Of a DNA stretch of 64,000 nucleotides, positions 1,657 to 45,329 are shown piece after piece. The DNA comes from Haliotis rufescens (taxonomy: Eukaryota), in NCBI RefSeq assembly GCF_023055435.1, contig NW_025964235.1:868001-932000 (forward strand), given 5' to 3'. The notes beneath the pieces are model-generated. The model did no database searches. It was not told where the DNA came from and saw nothing but the letters and a program-made list of their open reading frames with translations. The position numbers and the translations under genes are program-made. The first letter of the stretch is position 1; every line of letters starts with the position of its first letter.

Positions 1657-4600
1657 ATGGACACCAGTCGCTTCCACGGAGGTGGACGTCTCAACATAAC
1701 ACAGGACTCGGCCCGAGATGTGGACGAAGATGAACCAAGAGACACGTCTTATACCGGCGTCCTGGTACAGCTCGCGATGGCGGCTGTTTGTGGCGGCTGT
1801 TTTGGGTATGCAGCAGAGAAGGGTAAAGGTACGTGTATAGTATCCCGTGTACTTAGATCCACAACCCACTACTACTACCATATACTAGTACTGCTGCTGC
1901 TACTGCTGCTACGTTTCCTCCTATGTTACTGCTGGTATTGGTTCTGCCACCACCACAACTACTACTACTACAACCCCTACTACTACTACTACTACAACCC
2001 CTACTACTACTACAACCCCAGCTACTACTACAACCCCAGCTACTATTACTACTACTATTACTACTACTATTACTACTACTACTACTACTACTACAACACC
2101 AGCTACTACTACTACTACTACTACACCGGCTACTACTACTACTACTACTTTACTACGGCTACTACAACCCCTGCTGCTGCTCCCACAACTACAGCTACCA
2201 CCACCACTACTACAACCACCACCACTACTACTTCTACTTCTCCAATTAAATCACCAACAACAACACCACTACTGCTTCTACTACTACACCCACCACCATC
2301 ACTCCCACAACTATTACAATCACCTCCACCTCTACTACTTCCTCTGCAACTAGCATTAATCTCTGCTCACTCACTTACTCATAAGCTACTACTACTACTA
2401 CTACTACTGCTACTACTACTGCTACGACGACTACTAAAATACCACCACTACCATTGTTCTACTCTAACATACACAGGCATATTACATATATTTTATGAGA
2501 ATAAACTGTTTACTGCAGTCACTATAAATTAATTTCAGAATCAATATGATGATCACTATGTACATGCAAGACATTTTGTTGTAGCGTTCGAACCTTCTGC
2601 CATCACGGCCCAGCTGACCTTGGAGAGATTCCTGCTGTTGAAAGTGTTGCTTGCCGCCACCGCAACAAGTATGTCTGCGTCTCTCTCAGTAATATACTCA
2701 GTGTGAACTCTAGGGAAGTGTAGGTCCTCGGTACCCATCTTCAGAGGATAGGATGTCAGACTCGGTGACTGATTGTGCTTCATCGCACCTTGATGGCATG
2801 GATGGTGGCTCATGCTTTCAGTCACTGGTTTGTCTGGTCCAGACTTGATTATTTTCAGGGCATATTTTTCCTTATTAATTAACCTTTGATAAACAGCTAT
2901 GATATATCTATATCTATAACAGGATAACTCATCTACATGGAGACATTTGATTTTTCTTTTCATATTAATCTGTACAAACACTCACAGCAGTCATATCTCA
3001 AAATAAATTACTCAAAGAATTCTGACCTGAATTCAACATGTGGTTTTGGCCATATTTAAGACATTCATTGATGTATTTGGAATGTATTATATGTAAAGTG
3101 TTTATTTGCAGTAAGTCTGTTGTATATGCAATAACCGTATGACGGCACATGTGGTATTCAAAAGTACCGAGATTATTCCAATGATATTTTTAACATGACA
3201 TCAATGGCAGCCATATTGAAAATATCCAACCAACATGTGACAGTCAGAGGAATATGGAGATGACTCATCTCCATGTGTCCCCTCATACTAAAGCAGTAGA
3301 CTGTAGAATGTAGAGTAGCAGATTATAGGGATATGTAGCATTTAGGCCAGACTTTATATTAAACATGGTTTACTATTCCAAAAAACTGAAAAGTGAAAAG
3401 TAAAGCAAAATTAAAAGCATTGTTTTTATTTGTATTTTTGTTCTACTTTTTCCACCTATCTGGCTAAAATTTTCAGCCCAAAAATCTGTAAACAATAAAA
3501 AAAAGAAAAAAACATTGATGGAAGTTGAACATGTAGACAGCTGCTTCAGCAGGTGTTGGCAGTAATTGCGGAGCTGTGGACTGCATGATCGTGATGCAGC
3601 TTGTAGCTCACCTTCCCTCCCTCTATGCCAGGTATGTTCTGCCTCTCCCTGCTGGCGATGGTCCCCGCAACAAGTCAACACTTCCAGCGAGCCAGGCAAC
3701 GCTTCCAGCTGCGCTTCCTTGACAAGGGTGTGGTCACAAGCATCGTGGGTGGAGGAATGCTCGGGGGAGGCATGGCCGTCTCAGGAGCGGTCAGCCACTT
3801 TGTGAACTCTACTATTTTAATATTTCTGTTCATCTCAGCCTTAATGTACTCTGGACCCATGGAGACACGGGGTAAAATAGGTCTTCAGCACCCCAGGCTT
3901 GTCGTAAGAAGCGACTACGCTTGTCGTAAGAAGCGACTACGCTTGTCGTAAGAAGCGAGTACGCTTGTCGTAAGAAGCGAGTACGCTTGTCGTAAGAAGT
4001 GACTACGCTTGTCGTAAGAAGCGACTGCTTGTTGTAAGAAGCGACTACGCTTGTCGTAAGAAGCGATCAGCTTGTGGTAAGAAGCGACTACGCTTGTTGT
4101 AAGAAGCGACTACGCTTGTTGTAAGAGAGGAATAAAGGAATCAGGTGGTCAAGCTCTCTGACCTGCTTGATGCAGGTCATCGAATCACAATTGTGTAGAT
4201 GTCATGATATCAATCACTGGATTGTATCGTTACCAGTACCTCTGATAACATTGATTCTCTAGCTGTAACTGTAGGACTGTTATCAGTTCATTAACAATGA
4301 ACAACTAAACTTGTTGTTATTTTGTGAAGTATATATGAGCCAATACTTGTCTGTTGTAGGGCCCTGCCATGGTGGTGGTGCAGCTGGGAGCAGGAGTCAG
4401 CTCAGCCGGTGAGATGTGGGGGTGGGTGGTGGGGGGGGAGGGTCTGTGTATTGTATCCTGAGATATGGACTACACACAGATAGGTCAGTGGAAGGACCCT
4501 CAAGCTGTGCAAGGCTGAGATAGGAAGGAAACTGTTGATAATCATGCCTCATGAATATATAGGATTATCTACTGTATTCAGTGATGTAATATGTTAATAC

Positions 4601-7600
4601 AATGTTCTTAGATGCAGCAATCTTAGTGTTTCAGGGACTTAACATTACACTGATGGTCGACTTAGTTCATTGGACTTCATTTTCAAGTTCTCTAAAGTGG
4701 ATTACCTGTCAACTTAATAAAGTTCTCATCTTCTAATACGTTTGTGACAGATCTTTTTTGTTTTTATCCACTGTGCCACTCTGTCGTCAGGCTTCACACT
4801 GGCAGGATGCCTGGTGGGGGTCGTTCTGTACGGCTGTCTGGAGCCATTTCTCACAAACATCTTGAAGCCAAGACAACCATACCTGCAATACTTGTGAGTA
4901 TTTTAAGAATATTTGTGGCATTGTGTGAATTGTTTATATGGCTTTTCATGTTTGCTCAATGAGATTTAAGACATTTAAGATGGTACAGATGGTACTTGTT
5001 GTTACCCTGCCTGGCACTCGGCATTAAGGGGCTAAAACAAGGACTGGTCATCTTGGGGTCAGTATACTGTGTCTGAGAGGGGTATTCATGTTAAACTGCG
5101 GCAGTATTAAGGGGGACAGATTAAGGCACAATAGCACAACTAAAAATTGGTCAGTATTTGTCTCAGCCACAAGGGGACAATGTCAGTATTGTCAGATCAT
5201 TTGATGAGATAAACATGTTCTGTTTGACAAGAAAAGATAGATTTTGAGGCTGGAAGTGGTTCCAACAAAATTGTTTGATAGGCATTACTTAGAAGTTGAC
5301 GGATGACAAGATAGACACAATTTTTATGGATAACAACTTCTTTAATACTGTGAAAAGCGACGTTTCGGTATAGATCCTTATACCGTTGTCAAGCAAGACT
5401 GAATGAGGGTCATAGTGCAGAATATATATAGTAGGTGGCTTCCAGCTGTGTTTTTTGTCCATCGTGTTGTGACAGCACCATCCCTTTGTTGTCACACCTA
5501 CCAATGTTACCCCACTCATGTATGCTGTTGTTGTTACTGTTAATCCTCCACCTACTATATATATTCTGCACTATGACCCTCATTCAGTCTTGCTTGACAA
5601 CGGTATAAGGATCTATACCGAAACGTCGCTTTTCACAGCATTGAAGAAGTTGTTATCCATAAAAATTGTGTCTATCTTTCCAACAAAATGTTAATAATTA
5701 AATACATACCATAAAGACATACTGCACCTTCATGGCCTGTACTTTCAATATATACAGTAGCAAGGTATTACTACATGCTGCACTGACACCCTCACTCACT
5801 GACAAGCACCACTGATTGTAGAGCCAGTTTGTGTAACATCACGTTTGTGTAGGCTCACTAAGCCTGTGTGAAGTTCTGGACCAGCATCTACTGTTTCAGT
5901 CTCCAGGACAGCCAGGGCGCCCCCTACTTCACGCTGTCACTCCCCCTAGCAGCCATGGTGTCCATGACGGTGTTTGCCCTGGAGCTGCTGGACCCCTGGG
6001 ACACGGAAGTCGATGTGCGTCTCCTGACTGTGGACATTAAACCACTATAAGTTGTTGCAGGATCACTCGGGGTACATGGGATTTTATGCATCTCATGGAG
6101 CTAGAAGCCGAAACCCCATGTGATCCTGCTGCAACAAATTTATCTTCCCAACATGTTTTAATATGACGCTGTAAAAGAATTCAAACAAATTCAAAATTGA
6201 TAGAAAACAGCTGTTCGATTGAAGTGAGGTTTGATGTCACGTGACTTCCATTGACTCGGAAAAAGTGTGCAGATTTTTGCTTTGAAGCGGGGTATAAGGG
6301 ATTTATTCTGTCTCTCAGAAATCCATGTACAGCCTGATTTGCTCATGGTGGGGTATAAGAGATTTATTACCCTCTTGAGAAATTTATTCCCCTCCAAGGC
6401 GAGTTGCACAGTATTTTATCAAGATCACGTGGACAAATGAGATCTCATCATCCTGACATGGAGGTATGATAATATTGTTTTGTGCCCAACTGCCCTAATT
6501 TGAGGATTTGACTGCTGCTTTGTCGTTCACACCATGTCGGTGTCTGTGGGGATTCTGAGGCAGAATAGGTCCCCAATATCGTGTGCTTATTGTTAGAGAC
6601 TAAATGGGGATTGGCTGACCAAAATGTAAACAGCTTTGCCTCACTCGTCGCCATGGAATCTTGATTGCAGCCTACATGAGAAACACAACAAATAGTACAA
6701 ACTGGTTCTTGTTTTTTTATTATAATGATTAATTTGCAAAGATATATAACAAAACTTCAAGATTGAATTGATTTTAAATCTAAATCTGCTAAATGACATA
6801 TTAAAAGTCAATTATATACAAATGTACAAAAAAGATTTGTTCAACAACATGTTTTATCACAATTTGAATTACTCGTGTTTTACAAGACTTTTACAAGACA
6901 AAGACAAGGTTTATCAGTACAACTAGATGTAAACTCACCTGGATCCGGGGCTGACAGTGAAGCTGATCCTATGTTGTAGTCCCAGAGCAGTGTGGAGTTG
7001 ATGTGGTCGCCCTACCTGTGTGGCGTAGTGATGGGGATGCTGCAGGTGCCCCTCGTGGTCATGCTCCAGGATACTCTAGGTGGGTGTGTCACAGTCTACT
7101 AAGTTTTAGTGAGCTACAGAGCTTCATAGAGAAGCGATACACTGTCTTCATATAGCAGAATGTATATTGTTGTGTCGAGACATTTAACGTTATTATTTCA
7201 GAGTGATATTTTATTTCTTAACAGTCAATTTGAGTTGCTTTGCCTGATGATTATTAAATGTTTTTTTTGTTTGTTTTTGTTTGTTGTTTAACACTGCACT
7301 ATATGACGACAGTCTGTAAATAATCGAATTCATTACTCAGAAATGCTGAGACTTCCAACATGCTCATTGGATATATTTCCCCTCCTAGGGGGCAGCACTA
7401 GCTTCTGCACTGTGATGTCCCAGGTGCTGATGTCAAGGTTGATGCGCAGGAAAATGCCATATCTTGCAAGGTTCCGATCAGGAATATCAAACTGGTGGCA
7501 GGTGAGTTTCTCAGTCAACAGCTGGTGGCAGCTGTAGAATTTTTCCAATTGATTTGACATATACAGATCCATAGATCACACACTCCACTCCACAAATCGT

Positions 7601-8564
7601 CATACCAGAGACCATATACCGGTATATGGTCTCTGGTCATACCTTTCGTTCCAATCGTCTCAAATTTCATTCCAGTCATCATAACTTTCATACCAGTTGC
7701 CAGTACTTTTGTTCTAATTGCCACAACTTTGGTAGAAGAAGACACTAAATGGGATGTTAAGGTCGATGACATTTTCATTTTTTGACGTAAAATGGTGAAA
7801 ATGTGGTCACAGTATATTATTATTAAAACACTTGTCTGAATGCTGATCATTATTATTTTTCAACCAAGCGAATATTTCTCTGCAATACAGTTTCAACTAT
7901 TATGGGTTGATTTGGAAAGTTAAAAATAGTTCTGATGCTGCTAACTTTTAGACATCAGAACATCATAAACATATGTGACAGCGACCAGCTGATGCTACAC
8001 AAACATGCCTTTAAATAGTCACATGTCGAAAGTTGGACTTGCAAAAGATACTTGGGGACAAATGCCCATTGTAATCTTTTCAATGTCATGTGTACTCCAT
8101 CCAGGTCCTGTTTATGCTGTTTGCTGTGATTGGAGCATACATTTCATCATCAACCAATCAGAATGTGCCAACAGGTGTCAGTGAAATCACTGGATTCATC
8201 GGAGGAATTCTAATCATATTTGGGGCAAGACTTGCTTCTGGATGTACAAGGTTAGCACATCTTCACTTATCTGTGAATATAAAGGTGAATACTGGTGAAT
8301 ATAAGGAGTGTTTTAGTGTTTGTTTCATACTGGACTACCTGTCATTACTCCATAGTAATGGATTTATCTTGATGACAAGAAGAAAGTATTCATTACCCGA
8401 TATGTTAGTGTCCCAATTAGAAGTCTGTTTGTTAATTGAATTATTATTTCTGTTTTAGTGATCACGTTATCTCTGGCGTAGGACTTTTATCTCTGCACTC
8501 CCTCATGTGTGTCCTGGCTGTAGTGGTTGGAGGTGTTGGCGCCGCCAGGCTGGTGCGCTCATAG
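1657..8564 (+). CDS. YeeE/YedE-family (TsuA-like) sulfur-compound transporter, 10 exons, about 381 aa
   Basis: Exons 1657-1828, 2585-2668, 3632-3789, 4360-4408, 4791-4893, 5900-6014, 6980-7079, 7389-7501, 8105-8250 and 8459-8564. All introns are GT-AG; total is 1146 nt in one frame ending TAG. The protein is hydrophobic and Gly-rich, with family-type motifs FGYAAEKGKAFEP, GGGMLGGGMAVSGA-GPAM, WSPYLCG, LGGSTSF and GGILIIFGARLASGCTSDH. Confidence 0.88.
1866..2452. repeat. (TAC)n/(CAC)n compound microsatellite in intron 1
   Basis: Direct reading. Confidence 0.92.
3897..4126. repeat. 22-bp tandem repeat amplified inside a family C retroposon
   Basis: GCTTGTCGTAAGAAGCGACTAC x about 10, flanked by the family C head and body. 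Confidence 0.9.
5272..5677. mobile_element. Penelope-like element remnant (inverted pseudo-LTRs)
   Basis: Near-perfect inverted arms of about 131 bp (5308-5438 / 5548-5678), one with a 3' extension. It is flanked by the direct repeat TTCCAACAAAAT (5260-5271, 5678-5689). Each arm holds a hammerhead-like motif. Confidence 0.7.
5592..5629 (+). ncRNA. Minimal hammerhead ribozyme variant (U3/A8), Penelope type
   Basis: GC-TTGACAA-C-GGTATA-aggatc-TATACC-GAAAC-GTC-GC: variant core, 6-bp stem II, GAAA, palindromic ACGT stem III and a GTC cleavage triplet. A mirror copy lies on the - strand at 5357-5394. Confidence 0.6.
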
Positions 8565-9393: not shown

Positions 9394-10141
9394 GTTGGCT
9401 GTCAGAACCTTAGTAGTAACATTGAATGCAGTTGTTAGAACCTCAGTGGTAACATTGAACTTGGCTGTTAGAACCTTAGTGGCAACATTTAACTTGGCTG
9501 TTAGAACCTTAGTGGTAACATTGAACTTGGCTGTTAGAACCTCAGTGGCAACATTGAACTCAGCTGTTAGAACCTCAGTGGCAACATTGAACTTGGCTGT
9601 TAGAACCTTAGTGGTAACATTGAACTTGGCTGTTAGAACCTTAGCGGCAACATTGAACTTGGCTGTTAGAACATCAGTAGTAACATTGAACTTGGCTGTT
9701 AGAACCTTAGTGGCAACATTGAACTTGGCTGTTAGAACCTCAGTGGTAACATTGAACTTGGCTGTTAGAACCTTAGTTGTAACATTGAACTTGGCTGTTA
9801 GAACCTTAGTGGTAACATTGAACTTGGCTGTTAGAACCTTAGTGGCAACATTGAACTTGGCTGTTAGAACATCAGTAGTAACATTGAACTTGGCTGTTAG
9901 AACCTTAGTGGCAACATTGAACTTGGCTGTTAGAACCTCAGTGGTAACATTGAACTTGGCTGTTAGAACCTTAGTTGTAACATTGAAATTGGCTGTTAGA
10001 ACCTTAGTGGTAACATTGAACTTGGCTGTTAGAACCTTAGTGGTAACATTGAACTCAGCTGCTGCAACCTTAGTGGTAACATTCAACTTGGCTGTTAGAA
10101 CCTTAGTGATAACATTGAACTTGGCTGTTAGAGCCTCAGTA
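9394..10141. repeat. 33-bp minisatellite x about 22
   Basis: TTGGCTGTTAGAACCTTAGTGGTAACATTGAAC. Confidence 0.95.
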
Positions 10142-14866: not shown

Positions 14867-19205
<4,339 letters not shown>

Positions 19206-25497: not shown

Positions 25498-25734
25498 TAT
25501 GGAATACTGTAAGGGACATTCTCGCGATATCGCATTCTCGCGATCTCGACCTTTGGAAATGAGGTAAATATGCCCAAAACACGAGAATGCGAGATCGCGA
25601 GAACGCGAGATTTTGGCCAAATCTCGCGTTCTCGCGATCTCGCATTCTCGTGTTTTGGGCATATTTACCTCGTTTCCAAAGGTCGAGATCGCGAGAATAC
25701 GAGATCGCGAGAATGTCCCTTACAGTATTCCATA
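25498..25734. mobile_element. Fully palindromic MITE, IS3EU-like termini
   Basis: 237-bp near-perfect hairpin with termini TATGG...CCATA and 6-bp TSD CCCACC. Confidence 0.8.
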
Positions 25735-26820: not shown

Positions 26821-28832
26821 CATAGTCATGAGGCTGTAAAATAAATTATAACTATTACAGGGTGTGTACATACCATCCTGTATTCGCCAGACCCCTTAGG
26901 TTGAGATATAAGGCCCCCGGGTGTCGCCAGGGACGTCCTCGCTCCTATACCTGTCACCGTCAGCTCACTACAATAGGTGTGAAGCCAGACAAAGTGCCAG
27001 ACACCTAGTCCCTGACTGTCCACATCCCAGTATTAAGTTATCACACTTGAATTTGTTGCCAGGAAACGATATATATACACACTTGTTTAAACGTCTCGGC
27101 CCAAACTTGTCTTTTGTAGTTGACTCAGCACAGATAAAGGCTACTGAGGTTATGATGAAACTCGGGACTTCAGTCCAACAAGGAGCGGTCGGTCGGCAGG
27201 TCAGAAAGCTGGTTCCCGGCTCCCGATGCGCGTCGTCCAAACGCCTGTCTCCCATATACTTAGGACTTAATTCATATGCCAGACTTTTTTCCGAACCCTG
27301 GCGACAGAACAGTCATTTTCTGATGCGTAAACAATGTCAATTTGCTGTTTCAGCAAACAAAACACAGAAGTGTCTAAATCGATCGAGTAACGAGTTAATG
27401 CACATTTTAGAGCATTAACTCTATTCAACATTGGAGTGTTACGAAGGTGTCACATCCTGGGAAGGAGCTTGTTATGACGCGTCAAGCAGATGGCGTCATG
27501 AAAAACTATGACGTCATCATGTCTGTATAGAGAGCTCCGCGAACGGGCTATCGCTGTGAGGAGCATGACCCTGTTCACATTTTGAGTTACCATTTAAAAC
27601 CCTGGTGGACGCAAGGCACGTCAGACACTGAAAGATGGTACTAGGTAAATTTGCACTTAGTTTTACACGTGACCTATGGCAGAGATCGTCCTCACGAGAA
27701 GTTGTGGTACTGTATTCTAAAGGTGCTCCACTTATTGTTACCCTGCCTGGCTTGGCATTTTGGGTACAAAGCAGGGACTGGTTGGCTTGTAAAGTGTATC
27801 TGAGTGGGGTATCTATAATAAACTGCTGCATGGTATCTCAGTGGTCTACCACGATAAAACCGGCTTATATCGGGACTAGTACAAACAACTACATACACAC
27901 GTGCAGGCAGTGTGTGAAATCAACACTACTAACCACCCAGGCAAGCTATATGATTTTTACTTGCCAGTTTTAGATTTAGGTAGCATGTTTTATTTTATAT
28001 ACAAAGTGCAAAGAGATATCTGGTAGAAGAGAAAGAAAATGTATTTCAAGTTTCAATAAGTATAAAACGTCAATATTTTATATCAAACATTCTGAACTAG
28101 ACCATCACATGCACATTCCTGAAATCAACCACTTAGAATCTAGATACTGACTCTTTTAAAGGAAGCACTCGTTTCGAACTATCATATTTGACACCAAAAA
28201 GACAATATTATAGCTCATTTGATAGAAAATCAAGTCAGTCCGCCTGACCACTTTGAGTTTATTTTAACTTGCCAGAAAGAAAATATAGTAGCTACTGGCG
28301 ACCGGACAGATGGGCCCCCGTGCATGCACGCCTGTATAGGAGATAATCTTGAACGCGACGTTTAACCCTATTTATAGTCACAGTCACAATGGTATTGACG
28401 TCATAGACGTCCATTGTGCATTATCAACATACATGGAGTACTAAACGAGTCCCCGTTAGATACCCCCTTACTACATCGAGTGTATTTCAAAACCTACCGA
28501 ACGAGGGACAACCACGATGCTTGCACTACCACAATACAAAATAGAAAGCCGTATACTATGTTTCTAACTTAATTTTCGCGAGTTGAGTGATATATCCCAG
28601 TCAACTGAAAACTCTTGACTAGACTCCAGTTAAATGTGTCAACAATACAGTTTTGAGATGCATGCCCAGTGAAAAAAATAGCGGGGTAGGTTAGGTGCTA
28701 CCAACTTCTCCATTATGCGTGATAAAGGTGTGTTGCTATTAAACGGGCGGGGGCGTGTTTTTATCGACGAGTGTTGATATATTTAATATTAAAAGACACG
28801 GGAGTAAGGTTAAATTTTATCATCCAAAACGT

Positions 28833-30456
28833 TTTTTATATGATTTTATTTCTTTTTGGGGTACACAAACAATATGTTTACAGAATATAGTTCACATGCA
28901 AACTTAAATGCATACAAGTTACAAAGTATATATCTATAGATGATAACAAAAACAAAACAAACTATTCCAGTGTCATATTGTTGGATTGTGCAAGTTCGTG
29001 GTTTTAAACGAATAGGTGGTGACAGAGAGACCAAAATGTCATGAACTGTGTGTATTTACATTGTGAATATGATATATTTCTGTCGATGTAATATGAATCG
29101 GTTATTTCTTGTTTGATGCGTGGGAAGTTTGGTATGGTGTAGGAAATGTTTGATTTGAATATGTGTTGCTTTGTTACAGTTATAATATGATTTAATACAT
29201 CATTTCGTTTTTGTTGATTTCCTAATAAAATTGTCAATTTTGGAAATTCTAGTTCTATTCCAGTTTTGTTTTTGATATATTGTATAAGGTTGTTCCAGCA
29301 GGGTCTAGTAATTAACATGCATTCCAAAAAAAAGATAAACCAAAGCAGCACTTAAAAAATTGGAGACCAATTTCGCTATTAAATGTTTCCTATAAGATAA
29401 CATCAGCAACAATAGCAAATAGAATAAAAAAAGTTCTGCCAACAATAATTAACGAAGATCAAAGAGGTTTTATGTCAAAACGATACATTGGAGAATGCAC
29501 TAGATTAATTTATGATATTATGGACTTTACTGAATCATGCATGGAAATCCCATGGTTGTTGTTATTTATAGACTTTGAAAAGGCGTTGATTCAGTAGACT
29601 GGGTTTTCATCCAAGAAGCTTTGACCTTTTTATATATTTTGGACCTTCTAAGTTAAGCACTGGATAAGAACATTCTATCACCATATAAAATCTAGTGTTT
29701 AAGTTAACGGTTTAATGCTACGCACTAATAAAAATATAAACGGAATTAGGATCGACGAGATAGAATATCTAATTTCCCAATTCGCAGACGACACATCTCT
29801 CATATAAGATGGAACTGAAAATTGTCTCCAAAACACCATGACAACTCTTCAAACATATGCGTCTTTTTCAGGCCTAAAAATTTACACAAGCAAAACGCAA
29901 GTGTTGTGGGTTGGCTCACAACGCTTCTCTGATAAATCTCTGTGCAAAAGTAGGAATATCGATTGGTCAAGAAAAAGTTTTACTCTTCTCGGTATCATTT
30001 TTACTCACAATTTGGCAGAAATGGTAGAGTGAGTAAGTGAGTATGGTTTTACGCCGCTTTTAGCAATATTCCAGCAATATCACGGCGGGGGATACCAGAA
30101 ATGGGCTTCACACATTGTAGCCATGTCGGGAATCGAACCCGGGTCTTCTGCGTGACGAGCGAAAGAAATGGTAGAAAGAAAATACAAAGATAAACTTAAA
30201 AGTTTAAAAATCATCATGAACTCATGGTTATCACGTGACCTGACCCCATTAGGTAGAATTACTGTACTAAAAAGTCTTATTTTACCTAAACTAACCCACC
30301 TTTTCTCAACCCTACCTAATCCAAGTGAAAGGTTTATAAAAGAACTCGAAACACTGTGTTTTCGTTTTATATGGAAAAATAAACCAGACGATATAAGTAG
30401 AAATATTATGATGAAACCTTATGAAGAGGGAGGTTTAAGAGTGCCTGATTTTAAAA
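28833..30456. mobile_element. L1/Tx1-clade LINE, 5'-truncated and 5'-inverted, degenerate
   Basis: The ORF2 C-terminus, AATAAA and A-tail lie on - (28833-about 29333). The RT segment (KNWRPISLLN..YKI, QRGF, DFEKA, SQFADD, EGGLRVP) lies on + (about 29325-30456). A 14-bp TSD ATCATCCAAAACGT sits at 28819-28832 and 30457-30470. Confidence 0.88.
30029..30162 (-). mobile_element. tRNA-derived SINE family A, 5'-truncated, nested in the LINE
   Basis: Matches the 54087 copy; TSD AGAAATGGTAGA on both sides. Confidence 0.85.
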
Positions 30457-30559
30457 ATCATCCAAAACGTGCCTCCACAGGAGAAATCACTTTGCAGAAT
30501 ATTGTGACGTCATCGATTACCATGACGTCACCATCTCTGCAATTGAGGCAGGTTAGTTA

Positions 30560-30798
30560 TGTTTGTTTGTTGTTTAACGCCGTACTCAGCAATATTCCAG
30601 CTGTATGACGGCGGTCTGTAAATAATCGAGTATGGACCAGACATCCAATGATTGACTTCATGAATATCGATCCCTGCAATTAGGATACGATGACATGCAT
30701 CAACCAAGTCAGCGAGCCTGACCACCCGATCCCGTTACCCGCCTCTTACGGAAAGCTTAGGTTGCTGAAGACCAATTCTACCCCAGAACTTCACGGGC
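30560..30798 (-). mobile_element. Short retroposon family C (no tRNA head, (AAAC)n tail)
   Basis: Consensus CCCGTGAAGATCCGGGTTAGAAT..GTCTTCAGCAACCCATGCTTGTCGTAAGAGGCGACTAACGGGATCGGGTGG...GCTGGAATATTGCTGAGTGCGGCGTTAAACAACAAAC. There are at least 15 copies or fragments in the window. Confidence 0.85.
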
Positions 30799-30857
30799 TA
30801 GTTCTAAATTTGACACTCGAGATTATTTACTCTTTACAAACTGAAAAACTGGAAGAA

Positions 30858-31368
30858 TGATTTTGGATGATAAATATAATCTTACGCGTGTGTCTTTTAT
30901 AACAAATATATCAACACGAGTCGATAAAAAGTTAAAGCCTCGGATGTTTAAACTTGTATTGACGCGTTGATATATTTTATATCAAAAGACACCGGGTGAT
31001 ATTCTCTATTTCATCCTTCTTTTTCAGTTTGTAAACAAACAAGTGTCCTGTGTGTAAAAATTACAACGTCGCCTCTTTCAATAACAGCACAGAGAGGTAT
31101 ATTTTCACTGAAAGAACCGGTCGTGTTCAGAGTTAACCAGAATCAGTAGCGGTGGGATTAGTGACGTAATTTGTTTGTGACAACATAATAACTGGTGGCA
31201 TCATAACGGTCTCACCAGAGATAAGCAAGTTTTGGATGATAAATGGAGAATCTCACCCAAGTGTCTTCTGATATGAAATATATCTACATGAGTCGATAAA
31301 CGTTTAAACTTTTATTGGCGAGTGTTGATATATTTGATATCAAAAGGCACAAGGGTGAGATTCTAGTT
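30858..31368. mobile_element. Hairpin-ended non-autonomous element family (unclassified)
   Basis: Two imperfect palindromes of about 140 bp starting TTTTGGATGATAAAT (30860-31018, 31230-31368). Related sequence lies at 28760-28832, 30457-30530 and 32220-32460. Confidence 0.5.
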
Positions 31369-33324: not shown

Positions 33325-36300
33325 ATGGACGTGGGAAATGCTTGGAAAGTTTTGCTGCTTTTCTGCATCTGCAGCCTTGTTTGTGGAAAGACAGCAGACA
33401 AGCCGATAGAACTTACCGAGGACAACTGGCAGGACATATTGGAAGGAGAATGGATGGTTGAATTGTGAGTTGTCTCATGCGGAAGTTATCTGGTGGATCG
33501 CGTGACCCCTATTTTCGTTATAGATCACACGTCTCAAATCATTGACTTTAGTTGCTCACACGGTGGTTTGTTTATTTACAGTGAGTCTGTTTTTGATTTG
33601 TGATTTTGTATTATTTTTCATTGCATAATTTGAAAATGATGTAGATCTGTTTTTGATTAACGTATTATATAGCATCAATGACGTGTGTGGCTACACTTAG
33701 AAGAACGCTATGTCATAATTTTAAGTTCCTTGTGGAGTTCTTCAGTGTGCACACAGTGGATGCATCGTGGCAGTAGATGATTGAGCGAGGATGTTGTAGA
33801 ACAAACTAGCACCACAGTCCCTATCCCATTCATGTCTGCAGCTTCTCAATGGGCGTACTGAACAAATGGATAATTGGGAGACATGTATAATAAAGATCTA
33901 GATTCTTAGCTGTTGCTGACAAACTTAGAAAAATTAGGTTGAACTTCGTCATTTGGGACAGTACTGAAGACGTTTCGTGTGCAGTGAGAGATTCCTGTCC
34001 ATGAATGTTGAACTGCGGTGAGGGTGACGTGAATATGTGGTGTTCATGCTCTATATGTCATTTATGTCGACTTGCCACGTCTATTGGCCCACATCCACTG
34101 ACCCGTGAGTAAACCTTCCACCCCTGCTGTTATTATCTCAACATACACCTTGATTATGTTTCTTGGTTTGTCGCAAACCTTTCCAGATTTCACTGACTGA
34201 TATACAGTATATGTCCGCATATTAGCCGAATTTTGAGGATACTATTTACAACATCATAAACCCAATTCACTCACTCACTCATACTTGTATGGCATTTATT
34301 TATAGACCGATGGACAGAAATGAATTTAATGACATTAAAGAATTTCACTGATAGACCAATTGTTAACCTATGTGAAGGATGCCAACTGCAAGCATCGTCA
34401 CAAACAGTCAGCCAGTGTTGGACAGTGAGCTGCTATTTAAACACTTAAAGTGAGAGTGAATATTGCTTGTATTTGACCAGTGTCGAAATAAGTGCCTGCC
34501 TGCGGTTGGTGACGTTTTTGTCGGGCTGCATGAAATTTGCCTCCACCTGCCCAACTATCTGGCAGATAATTTTAAGACTACTTAGGCATTAAGTTATATC
34601 ATAAGTCCTTGTAGATTCTCATGTAGTTGTTTGCCTTATTTCAACTGAATCAAGACACGATTTGTCTCTTATCTTTCGTGATTTTTCTCATAGTGTCGTT
34701 GGTGATCCATTATTAACATGAATGAAAGGAAGTAACTGCGCCTTCATTGGTCAATCTAGTCTTAGTTATAGTGTATTAGGATTGATATTAAGACACATAA
34801 TAATCAGACATACTTTTTTTTATAGGGCTGGAAAACATAATACGCAAGGTTTCATTTAAATTTAATATTGTCTGAATGAGGGCAGGTAACTTTCAAGATA
34901 GGCAGGCAACATTTATGGGTCACCTGCCCGACTGCCTTGTTGGGTTATGAAATTATTTCAAACACTGGAGATGACCCAGCTTTATGACAACATCCCCAAA
35001 GTGCAAGCCCCTAATATCCCATGGTGTTATTCAGGAAAACTCAGTTTGTTTTGGCTAGGTTGTTAAATGCTCACTGTTGTATGTAAATCAGTACACACAT
35101 GTTTTTTATAGGACATATAAATCGTCTCATTGTTTGACATTTTGCTCAATCATTGTTCCGCAGGCATCATGTAAACAAACGGTTGAGATATGACAGTGGT
35201 ATGTCAGTAAACAAACGATTGAGATATGACAGTGGTATATTAGTAAACAAATGATTATGATAGGACAATGGTATGTCTGTAAACAAACGATTATGATAGG
35301 ACAATGGTATGTCAGTAAACAAACAATTAAGATAGGACAATGGTATGTCAGTAAACAAACGATTGAGATATGACAATGGTATGTCAGTAAACAAACAATT
35401 AAGATAGGATAATTGTATGTCAGTAAACAAACGATTTAGATATGACAATGGTTTTTCTGTAGTCAAACGATTAAGATAGGACAATCATATGTCAGTATAT
35501 GACGATGGTTAAAGATAGGAGATTGGTTTGTCTGTAAACAAACGATTAAGATAGGACAATGGTGTGTCAGTAAACAAACGATTAAGATAGGAGATTGGTA
35601 TGGCAGTATACAGACTGCGTGGTCTGCTTCAGCATGGCGCCGTGGTGCCCGGCATGCCGGTCCTTCAAGGAGACGTGGGACAGTTTTGCCAAATGGAGCA
35701 AGGATCTGGATGTAAATGTTGGCATAATCGACGTCACCGAGAACCCAGGTATGGAAGTAACATGTTCACATTAAAAACAGAGTTTATGTACCACTGTGTG
35801 ATCTCTGTATGCTGTGGTCAATGTTTCCTGCTGCTTGGGGTCGTTCATACTGTCGGCCACTGGTTTGTATGACAAAGGCGTATTCATCGTCAGGCCACAA
35901 TGATTATGTAAAGTCATCATTGATTGACTGCTAACATGCTGTGTTAAATTGTGGCATGGTATCACATGGCAACCGACATTACTCCAAGCTAGTACAACCA
36001 GACACACACATAATATGAGGTAGAAATTGGCACTAGTCCTATAGTCCTTGCCGAACTGTCCAATAGTTAGGTATCATAAGGACTAGTATACCCATGAAGT
36101 TCCAGGTAGAGAATAAGTCTTCAGCAACCCATGCTTGTCGTAGGAGGCGACTAACAGGATTGGGTGGTCAGGCTCGCTATTTGGTTGATGTATGACATCA
36201 TTATTGCAGTTGCGTAGATCGATGCTCATGATGTCATTCACTGGATTGCCTGGTCCAGATCGCCGTAATATAGCTGGAATATAGCTGAGTGCGGCATTAA

Positions 36301-39300
36301 ACAATAAACAACCAAAAATAGTAGATAAAAACTAGCACCGATATACATGCACACATGTGATGCACATCTCCATTTACATGATATAAGTGCACTCATCCTG
36401 AACGCGATGTTAAACCCTCGTCTGAATGACTGATGTACAATGAGGTGAAATCGGGTTTGATGTCGCCTTCAGAATCATTGCACTTGTATAACAATGTGTT
36501 TGTCTGTCTGTGTGTGTATGTATGTGTGTGTGTTGCTGCTTGTACTAGCCCGGACTAGTGCAGGTTTTATTGTACTGGCCCAGTGAGATACAATGCCACA
36601 GTTTGACATGGATACCTCACCCAGCTGTGGGCCTCTTTGCATATCAATGAAAACAGTTAGAATTTTTATTAGCATTAAGCGAACATTTTAACAATTTGAG
36701 AATTACTGGGGAAAAAGGAGATTTCATGTATCCTCTCGCCCTTATTGGTAATATATGCATATTATGTCCTTTGTCAGCAGAAGGTGCACCTCCAGAACTT
36801 CATTGCTGCTTTGTTGTTTATACGTGCCTAATCTCTTTTTGTGCAATTTGACATCAATTTCATTTTGTCTGCAGGTCTGAGTGGTCGTTTTTTTGTGACA
36901 GCACTACCAACCCTTTATCAGTAAGTGTGACCAGATGATCAATCTTCTCGGCATTCTGTCTGATATCAGTAGAAAGATAATATGGTCCAGAGCTCCGAAC
37001 TACGACTGGAAGTAGTTAGTATCTAATTTCCATCATCAACATGTAAAAACTTGAATGCCAAAACTATCAAGATTTTAAAAATTATTTTGCACTGGAATGA
37101 AATAAGAATATTATTGGCATAATGCTAAACTAAAGGGTGAGGTAATAGCCCAGTAGTGAGAGTGTTTGCCTGCCTGGGTGTCAGGTTCTATTCCCACCAT
37201 GGATACAGTGTGTGATGTGCACACATGACCAGGTTATTTCTTCATCCCTAGTGTCCGAGATGGAGTGTTCCGCCAGTATCACGGCTCCAGGAAAGAATCT
37301 GACCTCATCAGCTTCGTCGATGACTACAAGTGGAGGGACATTGATCCAGTGTCGGGCTGGCTTGCTCCCAACTCTATACAGTAAGCTACACTGGTCAACT
37401 TACAGCTAACAACCAGTTGATATATGACATTGAAGTCTCTCCACCTAGTGTTGTGTCATTCCTAATTTGCATGTGATTAATAATTACGAGCTACTGAATA
37501 TGCATACTGTTCCGCCCCCCCCCCCCCCCCCCCCCTAATTTTGAAAACCATATGTAGTATGTTGTAGGCAGTAAAATTATCTGAGAGAGGATTTTGGAAC
37601 CCTCCCTCTTAAAAATGCTGGATCTGCCCTTGTTTCACAACTTAATTGTTGTGACTATTACATTTTCACAAATATGTCTGTTCAGCTGATGTAACAGCCA
37701 GTGGCTCTTACATTTAGTTTACTTACAGTCTTTTTTTATCAACTAAGATGCATGTTGAATATAATAAGATGCTGAATACATTAGTCTGTGAATGATTTAT
37801 TTTCTATTTTGACACAAACAAAACATAAAGGAACAAGAATTCACAACAAAATGCAAACTTTAAAGTTTTAAGTTGTCATGTTTACATCGTGTCACTGTGT
37901 GACCTTGCCCTTGAAATCAAATGTAGCAGCATGATCGGAGTCACTGTGACAGTTCGTCTCCCTCACTACTGACATTGTTGAGGTGGAAGTGGATCTTTGA
38001 TAATTTATGTGTCCTGTGACGGACATTATTTCGGATGTATCCATACTGACCCCGCAGATTCCTCTCTCACCAGGGGTGGGTCAAGAAACAACTGGAGCTG
38101 TATCTGTGCTTGTTAGATGATGGGTGGCGTCTTTAGTTTTAGGCCATTAGTCCTTATGATGATAACAGATAGCGAAACCTTTAGAAATGGAAAATTTCTG
38201 CTTGTGCATATAATACCTTAACTGTTGGACAGTTTGTCAAGGACCAAAGGACTAGGGCCAATTTCTAATGCTGCTATGCTGGTCATAAGAGGCGACCAAA
38301 TTGATCAAGTGATCAGACTCTTTGACTTGTTGATTGTGTGTCTTCGTACCCCGATAACAGGGATCGTTGCTCACAATATCAATCACTGAATTGGCATATT
38401 GGGGCGTCATACAGCTGGACTATTACTGAGTGGGCATTCAACAACAAACACATCATTTCCAATCTTTACTTTGCAGGATGTCCACTGTCGGGTTATTCTT
38501 CAAGGCTGCCATGGTTATTCGTGTAAGTTGTCCACGTTGGTTGTCGAGGGGTCGGGTCACTCGGGTGTCCAGGCAAGATGCAGATACTAGATATTATCAG
38601 AGACTTGTGCACAGAAAGCAATGTCATACTCTGTGCCAAGGTTTTTCCTTTGGCCTTGCGATGATATGCTAGCCATGGATATCATAAGTGGATCCTGAGA
38701 GGGTGTCTAGGGGGTCCGGACACCCCACCCCACCCCACCTTGAAAACCAAATGTAGTATGCTGCTGGAGGCAGTAAAATTGACTGAGAGAGGCTTTTGAT
38801 ATTTTAGACCCCTCCCTGTTTTGATTCATTGGTATTTCTAACAGATCTTTCCCATGTAACTTTGCACATCTCATATGCAATCTTCGAAATTCACACAAGC
38901 CTGAGACTACTGAATGTTGTTGATGGCAGTATATCTTATTGAATAGTAGCATTTGATGGCTAGAATTCTAAAACACTTCTCAAAACTTCCAATTTTATCT
39001 GCAAATTGGAGCTAAATAAAACTGATAGAACTTGTAAACATAGTAAACATTTGTCTACAAGCTTCTAACACTGTGTGTAAGTGAAATCAGGTTTCCACTT
39101 TTCCTGGAATAGTCTTTAAAAGAAGACTTAATTTATGGATAACTTCTTTAATACTGTAAAGGCGATGGTTCGGTATAGATCCTTACTGTTTTGCTTGACA
39201 ACGCTTAAAGATCTATACCGAAACGTCTCATTTACAGTATTAAAGAAGTTGTTATCCATTAATTGAGTCTACTTTGTCATCCGTCAACTTCTAAGTAATG

Positions 39301-41696
39301 CCTATCAAACAATTTTGTCTTAAAAATCCTAAATTTCTAAGGCTGCCCCAATGATGTATCCGAGCCAAAATGTCACATAAGTGTGAAATAGGAAGTTGTC
39401 CTTGCTGTTTATGAAATGTGTGCTGTCTCCGCTCCAGTCCTTCTACACGACCATGACCTCGGAGTACGGCATCCCGGAGTGGGGGTGCTACCTCATCTTC
39501 GCTGTCCTCACCATTGTCTCAGGCCTCCTCCTCGGGCTGGTGAGTAGCGGGGGACATATTGGGCAACAAACAGGTTGGGAAAATCTGATTGGTTGCAAAT
39601 GATGTTTAATCTGATTCGAAACTTGTAACTTTTCTTCAGGATCTATACCAAAACAGGGTGTTGGGGTAACGTAGTTGTTAAAGCGTTCACTTCTCATCCT
39701 GAAGACCCGGGTTCAATTCTCCACTTGGGTAGTGTGAATCCCATTGCTGGTGTCCCCTGCCGTGATATTGCTGAAATATTGCTAAAAGTGGCATAAAACC
39801 ATACTCACTCACTCATTCTTTCACATTACAGTAGGAGAAAGAAGTTGTTATCCATAAGTTTTTGGTCTACTTTAACTCTTCTGGACTTATTCTTCTGGAG
39901 TACATTTCTGAATAAGAGTGACAAATGTGTCATTTAGCCTGGTGAACTATGTATTGTTTTTAGATTGCAGATAAATATGTGTTTTCAGAATTTTCCATGT
40001 TATTGTGCATTTGACAGGACATTTTGCATGTATATCTATGGCTAATATTTTTTATTTTATTTTCAAAAACATTTTGCGCCCATCAAGTATTCAGTTTGAG
40101 AAAACCTGAAAGTAGTTTATTTGTGGACGTCATTATTATAAGCTGAATAACTGAAACACAGCTGCGGGAGATCACATTGAAGTCGCTGATCATTTTGATT
40201 ATTCGTGTAAGAAACCTTCTAAATATGAGTGGGGCTGCAGGGTAACCCTAGTGTTTAAAGCATTTGCTCGTGATGCTGAAGGCGTGGGTTTGATTTGAGT
40301 CAGTTCTACTTTTCCGATGGATATGTAACATATCAGTTCAATCTGTGGAACTTCTTGAGACAGCTCGGTTTGTCACTACTTTGAAGTTTTTTAAATGCCA
40401 AATATATATGCCTCTTTAAATAGTGGTGGTATGTATCTCTAAAGCATTGCCCCGTGACTTGCTGCTACAGCTCATCGTGTGTTGCTGTGATGTGCTGTTT
40501 CCGCCCAAATACCAAAGTGTGAGAGTCATTCAGGAGCAGCCTCAAGGGATGGGAGATACTATGGACAGGGAGGACAAGGTAGGTTTGTCATGACACAGGT
40601 GTACTCCGGACAGGGAGGACAAGGTAGGTCGTCCTGACACAGGTGTACTCTGGACAGGGAGGACAAGGTAGGTCGTCATGACACAGGTGTACTCCGGACA
40701 AGGAGGATAAGGTAGGTCGTGATGACACAGGTGTACTCCGGACAGGGAGGACAAGGTAGGTCATCCTGACACAGGTGTACTCCGGACAGGGAGGACAAGG
40801 TAGGTCGTCCTGACACAGGTGTACTCTGGACAGGGAGGACAAGGTAGGTCGTCATGACACAGGTATACTCCGGACAGGGAGGACAAGGTAGGTCGTGATG
40901 ACACAGGTGTACTCCGGACAGGGAGGACAAGGTAGGTCATCCTGACACAGGTATACTCCGGACAGGGAGGACAAGGTAGGTCGTCATGACACAGGTGTAC
41001 TCCGGACAGGGAGGATAAGGTAGGTCGTGATGACACAGGTGTACTCCGGACAGGGAGGACAAGGTAGGTCATCCTGACACAGGTATACTCCGGACAGGGA
41101 GGACAAGGTAGGTCGTCATGACACAGGTGTACTCCGGACAGGGAGGACAAGGTAGGTCGTCATGACACAGGTATACTCCGGACAGGGAGGACAAGGTAGG
41201 TCATCCTGACACAGGTGTACTCCGGACAGGGAGGACAAGGTAGGTCGTCATGACACAGGTGTACTCCGGACAGGGAGGACAAGGTAGGTCGTCATGACAC
41301 AGGTGTACTCCGGCCAGGGAGGACAAGGTAGGTCGTCATGACACAGGTGTACTCCGGACAGGGAGGACAAGGCAGGTCGTCATGACACAGGTGTACTCCG
41401 GACAGGGAGGGCAAGGCAGGTCGTCATGACAAAGGTGTACTCCGGACAGGGAGGGCAAAGTAGGTCGTCATGACACAGGTGCACTCCAGACACAAGCCGA
41501 GGTAGGTCGTCATGACACAGGTGTGTGGACGCATTATTCAACAACATCTGAACGGAATGGCGAATGCTGTATCTGACACACAGTATTGTACTTGCAGGAT
41601 GATGATATCATTGATGACACAAAACAAACAGATAGTGATGATGATGATGAAACTTCTTCAACCACACGACGGAGACAAGTACAGAAGGCGGAATGA
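33325..41696 (+). CDS. TMX1: Thioredoxin-related transmembrane protein 1, 8 exons, about 261 aa
   Basis: Exons 33325-33464, 35633-35748, 36875-36920, 37252-37380, 38477-38522, 39438-39539, 40471-40578 and 41598-41696 (786 nt in frame). Has a signal peptide, GEWMVEFMAPWCPAC active site, GLSGRFFVTALPTLYH, a TM helix with juxtamembrane CCC, and an acidic tail with RRR. Confidence 0.93.
34478..34967. mobile_element. hAT-like MITE
   Basis: CAGTGTCGAAATAA / TTATTTCAAACACTG termini and subterminal CCTGCCC repeats; TSD degraded. Confidence 0.5.
35170..35608. repeat. 36-bp minisatellite x about 12
   Basis: GTAAACAAACGATTRAGATAKGACAATGGTATGTCA. Confidence 0.9.
36089..36312 (+). mobile_element. Family C retroposon
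   Basis: Near full-length copy. Confidence 0.8.
39120..39319. mobile_element. Second, shorter Penelope-like inverted remnant (TMX1 intron 5)
   Basis: Same family as 5272-5677, including the tail CATCCGTCAACTTCTAAGTAATGCCTATCAAACAATTTTGT and the motif TTGACAAC...TATACCGAAACGTC at 39195-39227. Confidence 0.7.
39655..39815 (+). mobile_element. SINE family A, diverged
   Basis: Sequence similarity to the 54087 copy; (ACTC)n tail. Confidence 0.8.
40563..41523. repeat. 44-bp minisatellite x about 21 spanning the TMX1 exon 7 / intron 7 junction
   Basis: GGACAGGGAGGACAAG|GTAGGTCGTCATGACACAGGTGTACTCC. Confidence 0.95.
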
Positions 41697-44600: not shown

Positions 44601-45329
44601 TGTGAGTTAAGTCTGACGCACTGAAATATTGTTTATTAATCTATATTGTGTTAATTGCGCACCATGATATTGTCATACTGGAATTACCATATGCCATCGA
44701 TTGTGTATGAATGATATACAAAGTTCTGTTTAATTTATGATTTACCATGTAATTGTATAACTTCCACATGGAGATAAAGCGTGCAACTTTTACATGTACC
44801 CCACTTGTCCTATGATTCTGCTTTTACAAGACATGATTCACGATGCATGTTTTTAATGTCCTTGACACTTACAATAACTTTAGTTCAATTAATTAGTGTT
44901 CCTATGTGTCTGTTGACCAAACACTGCCCAGATAGAGTTGGAGGGAAATGGGTATACCGATACTGGTTGATGAACTCGTTACGAAAGGAGTTCACAGAAA
45001 TGGTTTGCACAGCAGCGAAATCTATGCATTAATTAATGTTCAGTTACATGTTTTTTTATAAGAAAAGCGCAACTAGTTTTAGATTGAAAGCTTCAACCAT
45101 TCCTGCTACATGTTTGCCATTTTGACATACTTCCTCTGTTGATGAAGCCTAACAGCTGAGATGATGTTCTCATTAATAAGCAATAGCTCTGAAAGTCATC
45201 ACAGAAAAGTTTAATTCAGCAGCTATGTTGTGCCAACTGCCTCAAGTGGCATGGTCATCAGTGCTTTTAATGCTATTTTTGTAAATAAAAATATTTTCTA
45301 TTTTCGATCTGTTGCTCCTTTCCACCCAT

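What the first reader, a model, noticed from the sequence alone, without database searches (positions are those of the whole stretch)
5260..5689. Penelope-like inverted repeat carrying two variant minimal hammerhead ribozymes inside an intron
Seen: 131-bp inverted arms, each with TTGACAA-C-GGTATA(6-nt loop)TATACC-GAAACGTC, inside a 12-bp direct repeat. Known: Penelope-like elements carry minimal hammerheads in their pseudo-LTRs, with a palindromic stem III (here ACGT) that allows dimeric folding, and often insert with inverted pLTRs. The core has the compensatory C3-G8 to U3-A8 swap plus an extra nucleotide before stem II. Stem I is only about 2 bp here, so activity is uncertain. One copy is sense to the YeeE pre-mRNA, and the arms can also form long dsRNA (possible editing or small-RNA substrate).
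Basis: partly seen in the sequence, partly recalled or inferred. Interest (0 to 1): 0.75.

Follow-up and report, generated by a model that had tools for sequence, protein, structure and literature searches.

The report
Inverted Penelope ends, locked hammerheads
This hairpin in an abalone gene's intron is likely an ordinary short remnant of a very abundant Penelope-type jumping gene: two copies of its end lie head to head, each with an already described minimal self-cutting RNA motif that is predicted to be locked in the hairpin and so unlikely to cut the host RNA.

Summary
Observation confirmed. The 131-bp inverted arms (5308-5438, 5548-5678; 129 of 131 complementary) each carry the U3-A8 hammerhead-like motif. 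They lie between 12-bp direct repeats, in a GT-AG intron (4894-5899) of a YeeE/YedE-family gene matching Haliotis rufescens.

The unit is not a symmetric foldback. One arm carries a 36-nt extension, and the 109-nt 'loop' is family sequence continuing the other arm. A second inverted copy with the same extension lies at 39119-39318, and public contigs show a very abundant family. Head-to-head ends, a one-sided 30-40-nt tail, a short duplication and TATATATA-20 bp-Inr all match published Penelope pLTR anatomy. The U3-A8 core, extra nucleotide, ACGT palindrome, 2-bp helix I and opposite-strand pairs are all in Cervera & De la Peña 2014.

No RT/GIY-YIG link could be obtained, so membership rests on non-coding anatomy. 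The two motifs are antisense to each other and cannot be dimer partners; in the pre-mRNA stem II has pair probability 0.000.

One lead remains: inversion junctions of other copies cluster at the Inr-like site (25 of 28 ends), which hints at reverse-transcriptase run-off on short, uncleaved promoter transcripts. Ordinary; interest low.

The parts
4894..5899 (+). Host intron (GT..AG) of a YeeE/YedE-family (PF04143) gene
   Evidence: Contig X16 record 9 joins 4893 to 5900; exons 4784-4891 and 5901-6014 match P0001, H. rufescens LOC124140686, at 97% and 100%
5260..5271 (+). Left copy of the 12-bp direct repeat; likely target-site duplication of 9-12 bp, last ~3 nt shared with the element's 3' end
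   Evidence: family loose ends at 5268-5270; empty site not seen
5272..5307 (-). 36-nt 'tail' extension of the left arm; holds the first ATG downstream of the Inr-like site
   Evidence: Identical extension in the copy at 39276-39311; highest contig depth of the element
5308..5438 (-). Left arm: 5'-truncated pLTR-like fragment, antisense to the host gene
5357..5394 (-). Minimal type I hammerhead-like motif of the left arm (U3 5392, C17 5359)
5439..5547 (+). 'Loop' = upstream pLTR/3'UTR-like family sequence contiguous with the right arm
   Evidence: Contigs of other copies run across 5504-5637, 5504-5619 and 5511-5649; depth far above single-copy flanks
5548..5678 (+). Right arm: tail-less pLTR-like fragment, sense to the host gene
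5556..5589 (+). TATATATA (5556-5563), 20 bp, Inr-like TCAGTC (5584-5589); putative core promoter, mirrored at 5430-5397 on minus
   Evidence: Sequence; the only 2 such arrangements in the window are the two arms; same layout reported for Pen2a_Av; junction ends of other copies cluster here
5592..5629 (+). Minimal type I hammerhead-like motif: 2-bp stem I, U3-A8 core, extra C at 5601, 6-bp stem II, ACGT palindrome, predicted cut after 5627
5678..5689 (+). Right copy of the 12-bp direct repeat
39119..39318 (.). Second, more decayed inverted copy of the family: tail on the + arm, inversion centre at stem I, stem II broken
39638..39870 (+). Probable third, decayed copy interrupted by another repeat (39677-39818)
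   Evidence: Short blastn hits at 39638-39654 and 39839-39857; sequence; weak

Best explanation
The 5272-5677 insert is likely a short, non-coding retrotransposition product of a high-copy Penelope-like element: two fragments of its end lie head to head between direct repeats, and the minimal hammerhead motif in each is predicted to be locked in the arm-to-arm duplex, so it would not cut the host pre-mRNA. Shown: the anatomy, the repetitive family, the two alternative 3' ends (with and without tail, the same in both inverted window copies), and the intron. Inferred, from PLE literature: a GIY-YIG endonuclease of an autonomous partner nicked both strands of an AT-rich target 9-12 bp apart. Each nick primed reverse transcription at one of two adjacent internal start sites of pLTR RNA, which gives one tail-bearing and one tail-less end. 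The two cDNAs stopped after about 170 and 240 nt and were joined at their truncated ends. Both arms share rare variants, so they likely came from one source copy in one event. The hammerhead belongs to the parent element's life cycle (tandem transcripts, possibly protein-assisted), not to this locus. Here it is a passenger in a spliced-out intron.
For: Anatomy matches published PLE insertions point by point: inverted 5'-truncated copy with a 30-40-bp tail at one end (PMC8557442); 31-bp tail, 9-bp TSD and TATATATA-20 bp-Inr in Pen2a_Av (PMC3846280; here); cleavage and extension of both strands, an ATT preference, and two RT start sites bounding the tail (PMC11167929). The minus-strand target here begins ATT. 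All motif features are in PMC4209133. The second window copy has the same two 3' ends but another inversion centre. Summed contig depth over the tail is 18,000-25,000 times the single-copy flank in 4 of 4 runs; this is not a copy number but shows high abundance. 14 of 15 listed joints (of 669) are arm-to-arm inversion junctions of other copies. Both arms carry 5569 C and 5576 A where most family depth reads T. With 4 hand-picked metagenome loci, 6 of 9 pairs show two-sided changes (0 of 500 shuffles reach the covariation score; slid controls 0.12 or less against 0.44). Folding: stem II probability 0.000 on either strand with both arms present, 0.85-1.0 without the partner arm; stem I 0.01-0.03; active dimer -13.5 against cofold MFE -31.3 kcal/mol.
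Against: No RT or GIY-YIG was linked to the family. No genome is held. Exact family patterns found 0 in genome contigs and 0 in viral contigs. The tail reading frame had no homolog. The hammerhead-like metagenome loci are short contigs in whose ORF lists I saw no RT by eye. The window's only RT hit among the ORFs scanned is L1-type and 24 kb away. The empty site was not seen, so the duplication is inferred. The covariation set was chosen by eye (4 of 18 hits) and is cross-family; L003's downstream similarity is weak (48 of 2000 shuffles, 1 of 18 tests). Within the family, stem II covariation was not shown, and the second window copy has a broken stem II. Junction contigs reach only 23-30 nt into the element, below the tool's 31-letter bar. 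The internal junction at 5438/5439 is not covered by a listed contig. Rfam gave no hammerhead hit at E up to 10. Nearest-neighbour energies ignore tertiary contacts and proteins.
Confidence: 0.85

Rival explanations
1. Same Penelope origin, but the inversion arose by fold-back self-priming of one cDNA or RNA (Arkhipova 2013 model, antisense template) rather than by priming at both nicked strands.
For: PMC3846280 explains head-to-head repeats with palindromic junctions this way. The arms share rare variants, and many family junctions are near-palindromic at stem I.
Against: The two outer ends differ (tail against no tail), the same two ends recur in the second copy, and both abut the direct repeats. 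This fits two separate priming events at the two start sites of PMC11167929 better. The junction here has at most 3 bp of fold-back complementarity (sequence).
Confidence: 0.3
2. A MITE or foldback DNA transposon (for example Mutator-like, with a 9-12 bp duplication) whose terminal inverted repeats contain a hammerhead-like motif by chance.
For: Long inverted arms, a 9-12-bp direct repeat, no ORF, high abundance; no RT link shown.
Against: The arms are not terminal: one is offset by 36 nt. Arm length and inversion centre differ between copies. The spacer is the continuation of one arm. The motif has every PLE-hammerhead consensus trait.
Confidence: 0.06
3. The sense motif is a working intronic ribozyme, or the hairpin a regulatory dsRNA, that affects the YeeE-like transcript.
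For: One motif is sense to the pre-mRNA with an intact core. No variant at 10% or more is listed in 5594-5627. The insertion junctions appear in runs of 4 studies and 2 organism labels (hint only). A 131-bp duplex is a plausible ADAR substrate (own knowledge).
Against: The antisense arm is transcribed first and is predicted to pair with the motif completely. There is no intact same-strand partner in the window. Stem I is 2 bp, and the extra C is predicted to pair with catalytic G12 (0.85-0.97). PLE minimal hammerheads are inactive as monomers and weak as dimers, and PAc's needs protein. A correctly spliced contig exists (genotype of that sample unknown).
Confidence: 0.05
4. An assembly fold-back artefact.
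For: No listed contig spans the internal junction.
Against: The arms differ at 2 sites. Independent contigs enter the minus-oriented tail from the left flank (2 runs listed) and the plus-oriented arm from the right flank (4 of 4 runs). The same architecture recurs in other copies.
Confidence: 0.02

Closest known systems
Minimal hammerheads of metazoan Penelope-like elements (Cervera & De la Peña 2014, PMC4209133), including U3-A8 forms in S. mansoni(4) and Saccoglossus(1) and 2-bp helix I forms in Oikopleura, Culex and D. virilis
   Same: Type I motif, extra nucleotide between 9 and 10.1 (consensus H), G10.1-C11.1, long stem II, palindromic 15.2-16.2, U-rich 5' flank, mostly solo, pairs on opposite strands 100-700 bp apart.
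   Different: The exact combination UUGACAAC core plus 2-bp GC stem I was not among the Fig. S3 rows I read; no Haliotis row; no ORF link shown here.
Inverted pLTR insertions with optional tail of EN+ PLEs: Pen2a_Av of Adineta vaga (PMC3846280); general scheme in PMC8557442
   Same: Head-to-head pLTR fragments, tail on one end only (36 against 31 nt), short TSD (9-12 against 9 bp), TATATATA-20 bp-TCA(G/C)T, ATG near the pLTR end.
   Different: No ORF between the repeats here; the whole insert is about 406 bp.
PAc (Poseidon of Anolis), PMC11167929
   Same: Two alternative 3' ends bounding a tail downstream of the hammerhead; AT-rich target beginning ATT; hammerhead predicted not to fold unaided.
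   Different: PAc has a C3-G8 core and its ORF starts at stem II; here the first ATG after the Inr-like site is in the tail. The clade (Penelope/Poseidon, Neptune, Nematis, Hydra) cannot be assigned without the ORF.
Non-LTR retrozymes of animals (bioRxiv 10.64898/2026.07.22.740005)
   Same: Non-autonomous, type I hammerhead, PLE-related.
   Different: Retrozymes are head-to-tail tandem repeats with same-strand hammerheads; this unit is head-to-head, so no cis dimer.

Membership tests
Penelope-like elements (EN+) | Telomerase-related RT plus GIY-YIG ORF between pLTRs | tested here: inconclusive
   None at this locus, as expected for a truncated copy. None linked. No genome held, so an autonomous partner could not be sought properly.
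Penelope-like elements (EN+) | Inverted, 5'-truncated pLTR copies, head to head, variable junction | tested here: met
Penelope-like elements (EN+) | 30-40-bp tail at one end only | tested here: met
   36 nt, 5272-5307; also on one arm only of the copy at 39119-39318
Penelope-like elements (EN+) | Short target-site duplication | tested here: inconclusive
   12-bp direct repeat at both ends; empty site not seen; only a degenerate candidate at the second copy
Penelope-like elements (EN+) | Promoter motifs in the pLTR | tested here: inconclusive
   TATATATA-20-TCAGTC as in Pen2a_Av; D. virilis Penelope's promoter is TATA-less; activity untested
PLE minimal hammerhead | Core YUGANRA-H, stem II closed by G10.1-C11.1, GAAA, palindromic 15.2-16.2, UH | tested here: met
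PLE minimal hammerhead | Covariation of stems and of the 3-8 pair | tested here: inconclusive
   Met across families in a hand-picked set of 8 rows; not shown within the family
PLE minimal hammerhead | Self-cleavage as a dimer | not testable with these tools
   Predicted unfavourable: -13.5 against -31.3 kcal/mol; L003 for comparison -24.7 against -29.1
Rfam hammerhead families | Match to a curated covariance model | tested here: not met
   No hammerhead hit at E up to 10 in 5100-5850
MITE / foldback DNA transposon | Terminal, symmetric inverted repeats of fixed extent | tested here: not met
   36-nt offset; centre differs between copies
Non-LTR retrozyme | Head-to-tail tandem units with same-strand hammerheads | tested here: not met
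   Opposite strands at this locus

The most novel reading that the evidence does not exclude
Most copies of this abalone family are SINE-like units of about 130 nt that run from a TATA/Inr start site through the uncleaved hammerhead to the tail. They would be made when RT starts at its internal site near the 5' end of any pLTR transcript and runs off the RNA's 5' end, often from both target strands. The genome would then hold a record, thousands of copies deep, of PLE start sites and RNA 5' ends, showing in vivo that uncleaved RNA is the template and explaining why solo minimal hammerheads are so numerous. Basis: 25 of 28 ends of the 14 listed inversion junctions map to 5584-5596 and none to the cut site 5627/5628. 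Caveats: only the 15 best-supported of 669 joints were shown; stalling at the stem II hairpin is an alternative; and some head-to-tail joints do end at 5627-5629.
Probability: 0.3. Interest if true: 0.45.

Novelty: new member of a known kind. Interest (0 to 1): 0.2.

Why it matters
As a locus it matters little: it is one of many Penelope-type remnants, with a published ribozyme variant that is predicted to be inert in its hairpin. As a family it could be a convenient natural data set. It is abundant, has sharp 3' ends and clustered 5' ends, and so could test in vivo whether PLE insertion uses uncleaved RNA and whether head-to-head repeats come from priming at both strands or from fold-back. 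Both questions are open in the papers read.

Tried and rejected
Whole-genome search: no genome held; the metagenome records are not searchable as handles. Rfam: only a chance mir-101 hit, E 6.1. Collection scans: the degenerate pattern gave 18 metagenome loci; I judged 4 hammerhead-like (L002, L003, L013, L017) and dropped 14 as chance or unclear before the alignment. It gave 4 viral loci: L019 was read and has no stem II, and L020-L022 have the same match length and were not read. Family-specific patterns gave 0 in genome contigs and viral contigs; blastn of the element against the 22 loci gave no hit. Protein search with the frame through the hammerhead and tail: 0 of 3 candidates. RT motif scan of six frames: no RT4 or RT5 motif of PLE type. 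Pfam was run on 30 chosen stretches, not on all 324 ORFs listed; the single RVT_1 hit is L1-like. Small-RNA runs X21 and X23 laid 0 reads, which is no test; no RNA holder was on record as RNA; so editing and small RNAs are untested. Empty site: no such joint among those listed, with 654 not shown. Supplement search of PMC8557442 for family motifs and 'Haliotis': no relevant hit. Lünse et al. 2017 is not held. L003's apparent sharing of the tail was dropped as evidence after the shuffle test. MITE, retrozyme and assembly-artefact readings were rejected as given under rivals.

Full report
Observation. The arms, the motif and the direct repeat are as described. Arms 5308-5438 and 5548-5678 are complementary at 129 of 131 positions, and the region folds far below shuffles (z -25). 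A scan for minimal hammerheads with either core finds only the two arms in 64 kb. The 12-bp repeat flanks the unit at 5260-5271 and 5678-5689; a 9-mer so placed arose in 9 of 20000 trials. The host is a PF04143 (YeeE/YedE-family) gene on +. An exon matches H. rufescens LOC124140686 at 100% over 91% of the query, that protein maps to ten exons at 1657-8561, and one RNA-labelled contig splices 4893 to 5900 at GT..AG.

The unit is asymmetric. Read on minus, the left arm continues for 36 nt (5307 to 5272) before the direct repeat, whereas the right arm stops without this extension. A second inverted copy at 39119-39318 has the identical extension on one arm, and its other arm stops at the same tail-less point. 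A probable third copy is split by another repeat at 39638-39870. Laying contigs of four DNA-type runs from four studies at 85% likeness shows a very abundant family. Summed depth over the tail is 18,000-25,000 times the flank in 4 of 4 runs; the tool warns that this is no copy number, and overlapping contigs inflate it. Loose ends put the family's 3' end at about 5269 (211-253 contigs in 3 of 4 runs' listed rows), so about 3 nt of the left repeat are shared and the duplication is 9-12 bp. The 109-nt loop is family sequence contiguous with the right arm (pieces 5504-5637, 5504-5619, 5511-5649). Both arms carry 5569 C and 5576 A, where about 75-85% and 98-99% of family depth reads T, which points to one source and one event; later conversion between arms is not excluded. 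Contigs enter the element from the right flank in 4 of 4 runs and from the left in 2 listed. They reach only 23-30 nt in, below the tool's 31-letter bar, so this is a hint that the insertion is shared, not proof. No empty site was listed.

Comparison with print. I read parts 1-2 of 4 of Cervera & De la Peña 2014 (PMC4209133) and parts 1-2 of 3 of its supplement. It reports the U3-A8 core, the nucleotide between 9 and 10.1, the palindrome at 15.2-16.2, 2-bp helix I forms, pairs on opposite strands 100-700 bp apart, no monomer activity and low dimer activity. Passages of Craig et al. 2021 (PMC8557442) give the inverted 5'-truncated copy and the one-sided 30-40-bp tail. Passages of Arkhipova et al. 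2013 (PMC3846280) give a 31-bp tail, a 9-bp TSD, TATATATA 20 bp before an Inr-like TCACT, and a self-priming model. Here TATATATA at 5556-5563 lies 20 bp before TCAGTC, and the only 2 such arrangements in the window are the arms. Passages of Schostak et al. 2008 (PMC2377424) describe D. virilis Penelope's promoter as TATA-less, which differs. Parts 1-2 of 4 of Frangieh et al. 2024 (PMC11167929) show nicking and extension of both strands, an ATT preference, two internal RT start sites bounding the tail, a protein-assisted hammerhead and no need for cleavage in vitro. I also saw passages of PMC6765202 and part 1 of 5 of bioRxiv 10.64898/2026.07.22.740005. Lünse et al. 2017 was seen only as a reference title. 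Searches listed no paper whose title or abstract start describes this abalone family or 5' ends clustered at an Inr. Repbase, Dfam and subscription papers were not available, the bioRxiv supplements are closed, and most listed papers were not opened, so this is weak evidence of absence.

Is the motif a conserved structure? A degenerate pattern (core, CGAAACGT, AAAGAAGTTG) found 2 places in the window against 0.00 expected and 18 metagenome loci. Four of the 18 (L002, L003, L013, L017) show 3-5-bp stem I and a paired stem II that the pattern did not ask for, and L013 is itself in an inverted arrangement. Aligned with the four window arms, 6 of 9 pairs change on both sides, including U3-A8 to C3-G8; 0 of 500 shuffles reach the covariation score of 0.44, and slid controls reach 0.12 at most. 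The four were picked by eye for looking like hammerheads and come from other families, so this supports the fold class, not selection on this family. L003's similarity downstream is weak (48 of 2000 shuffles, best of 18). Rfam has no matching model.

The missing link. No RT or GIY-YIG could be tied to the family. No genome is held, four family-pattern scans were blank, and the tail frame had no homolog. The window's one RT hit among 30 stretches scanned is L1-like, at 29316. Membership therefore rests on non-coding anatomy: five features agree, none alone is decisive, and the clade is unassigned.

Does it cut? Probably not here. The two motifs are on opposite strands, so no transcript holds both in sense. 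With both arms present, stem II has pair probability 0.000 on either strand. Without the partner arm stem II forms (0.85-1.0), but the extra C pairs with catalytic G12 (0.85-0.97) and stem I hardly forms (0.01-0.03). The double-hammerhead fold of two strands scores -13.5 kcal/mol against a cofold minimum of -31.3, while L003 with a 5-bp stem I scores -24.7 against -29.1. In the host pre-mRNA the antisense arm is made first. The only other same-strand motif in the window is 33 kb away with a broken stem II. These are secondary-structure predictions and ignore protein help. The duplex could be an editing substrate (own knowledge), but the RNA runs gave no test.

Mechanism. Most likely an endonuclease nicked both strands of the target a short distance apart, each 3' end primed RT at one of the two internal start sites, and the two truncated cDNAs were joined head to head. 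This accounts for the duplication, the outward-facing 3' ends and the one-sided tail. Every enzymatic step is inferred from PAc. Fold-back self-priming remains a rival.

The one lead. Of 669 joints, 15 were shown, and 14 of these join left-arm to right-arm sequence, that is, inversion junctions of other copies. Of their 28 ends, 25 map to 5584-5596 and 20 to 5584-5590, around the Inr-like A at 5586; none maps to the cut site. The second window copy also starts there. This suggests run-off at the 5' end of short, uncleaved promoter transcripts. Against it: the list is a top slice, stalling at the hairpin could mimic it, and head-to-tail joints ending at 5627-5629 exist (table 5c), though a variant downstream sequence plus microhomology may explain them.

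Verdict. A real feature, a new member of a known kind, and likely inert. Interest 0.2. Two earlier AI notes on other genomes reached similar readings; they are not independent evidence, and my reading was recorded before I saw them.

Noticed in passing
window 39119-39318: Second inverted copy of the same family, tail on the + arm, stem II decayed, possible degenerate target duplication of about 11 bp.
   Followed up: yes
window 39638-39870: Probable third copy interrupted near the predicted cut site by a dispersed repeat (39677-39818) that recurs at about 12760, 25220, 30030, 54110 and 58890.
   Followed up: partly
window 5589-5629 (other genomic copies, table 5c): Head-to-tail joints from 5627 back to 5589 with two letters between, in runs X7, X11 and X16: a tandem of about 41 nt of the hammerhead core exists elsewhere in the genome. 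It could be a mini-retrozyme-like array or a microhomology duplication.
   Followed up: no
window 4987-5103: Fragment of another, more abundant repeat in the same intron (summed depth above one million); similar to 27730-27830. SINE-like by recall, not tested.
   Followed up: no
window 1657-8561: Ten-exon animal gene of the YeeE/YedE sulfur-transport family (PF04143), annotated 'uncharacterized' in Haliotis; the family is mostly known from prokaryotes (own knowledge).
   Followed up: partly
window 29007-30605: Broken L1/Tx1-type LINE pieces: RVT_1 hit at 29316-29594 (E 2.6e-10), best PDB match LINE-1 ORF2.
   Followed up: partly
window 25498-25734; 30833-31035; 31247-31364; 15192-15304: Other palindromic or foldback elements, including a 237-bp one at 96% (self-blast); none has the hammerhead motif.
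   Followed up: no
window 52872-53426 and 62460-63998 (both -): B-box (TRIM/NHL-like) ORFs, the second 513 aa without a stop.
   Followed up: no
window 58215-58532 and 15821-16344 / 57637-58166: DDE_3 (Tc1-like) transposase fragment beside a 520-bp repeat shared with 15.8-16.3 kb.
   Followed up: no
window 3897-4126, 9395-10140, 35170-35615, 45242-47750: Minisatellites (about 22, 66/33, 36 and longer units) that give long repetitive ORFs.
   Followed up: no
L002:931-993, L003:566-623, L013:154-212, L017:16-74: Hammerhead-like motifs followed by (A/T)ATAAAGAAGTTG in short, animal-looking metagenome contigs. L002 has a U3-G8 core and a 6-nt bulge in stem II; L013 is inverted. The AAAGAAGTTG block may be a shared pLTR signal, but it was part of the search pattern.
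   Followed up: partly
window 42929-42976: 77% match over 48 nt to the spacer 5440-5485 (E 5e-4); possibly a distant relative.
   Followed up: no
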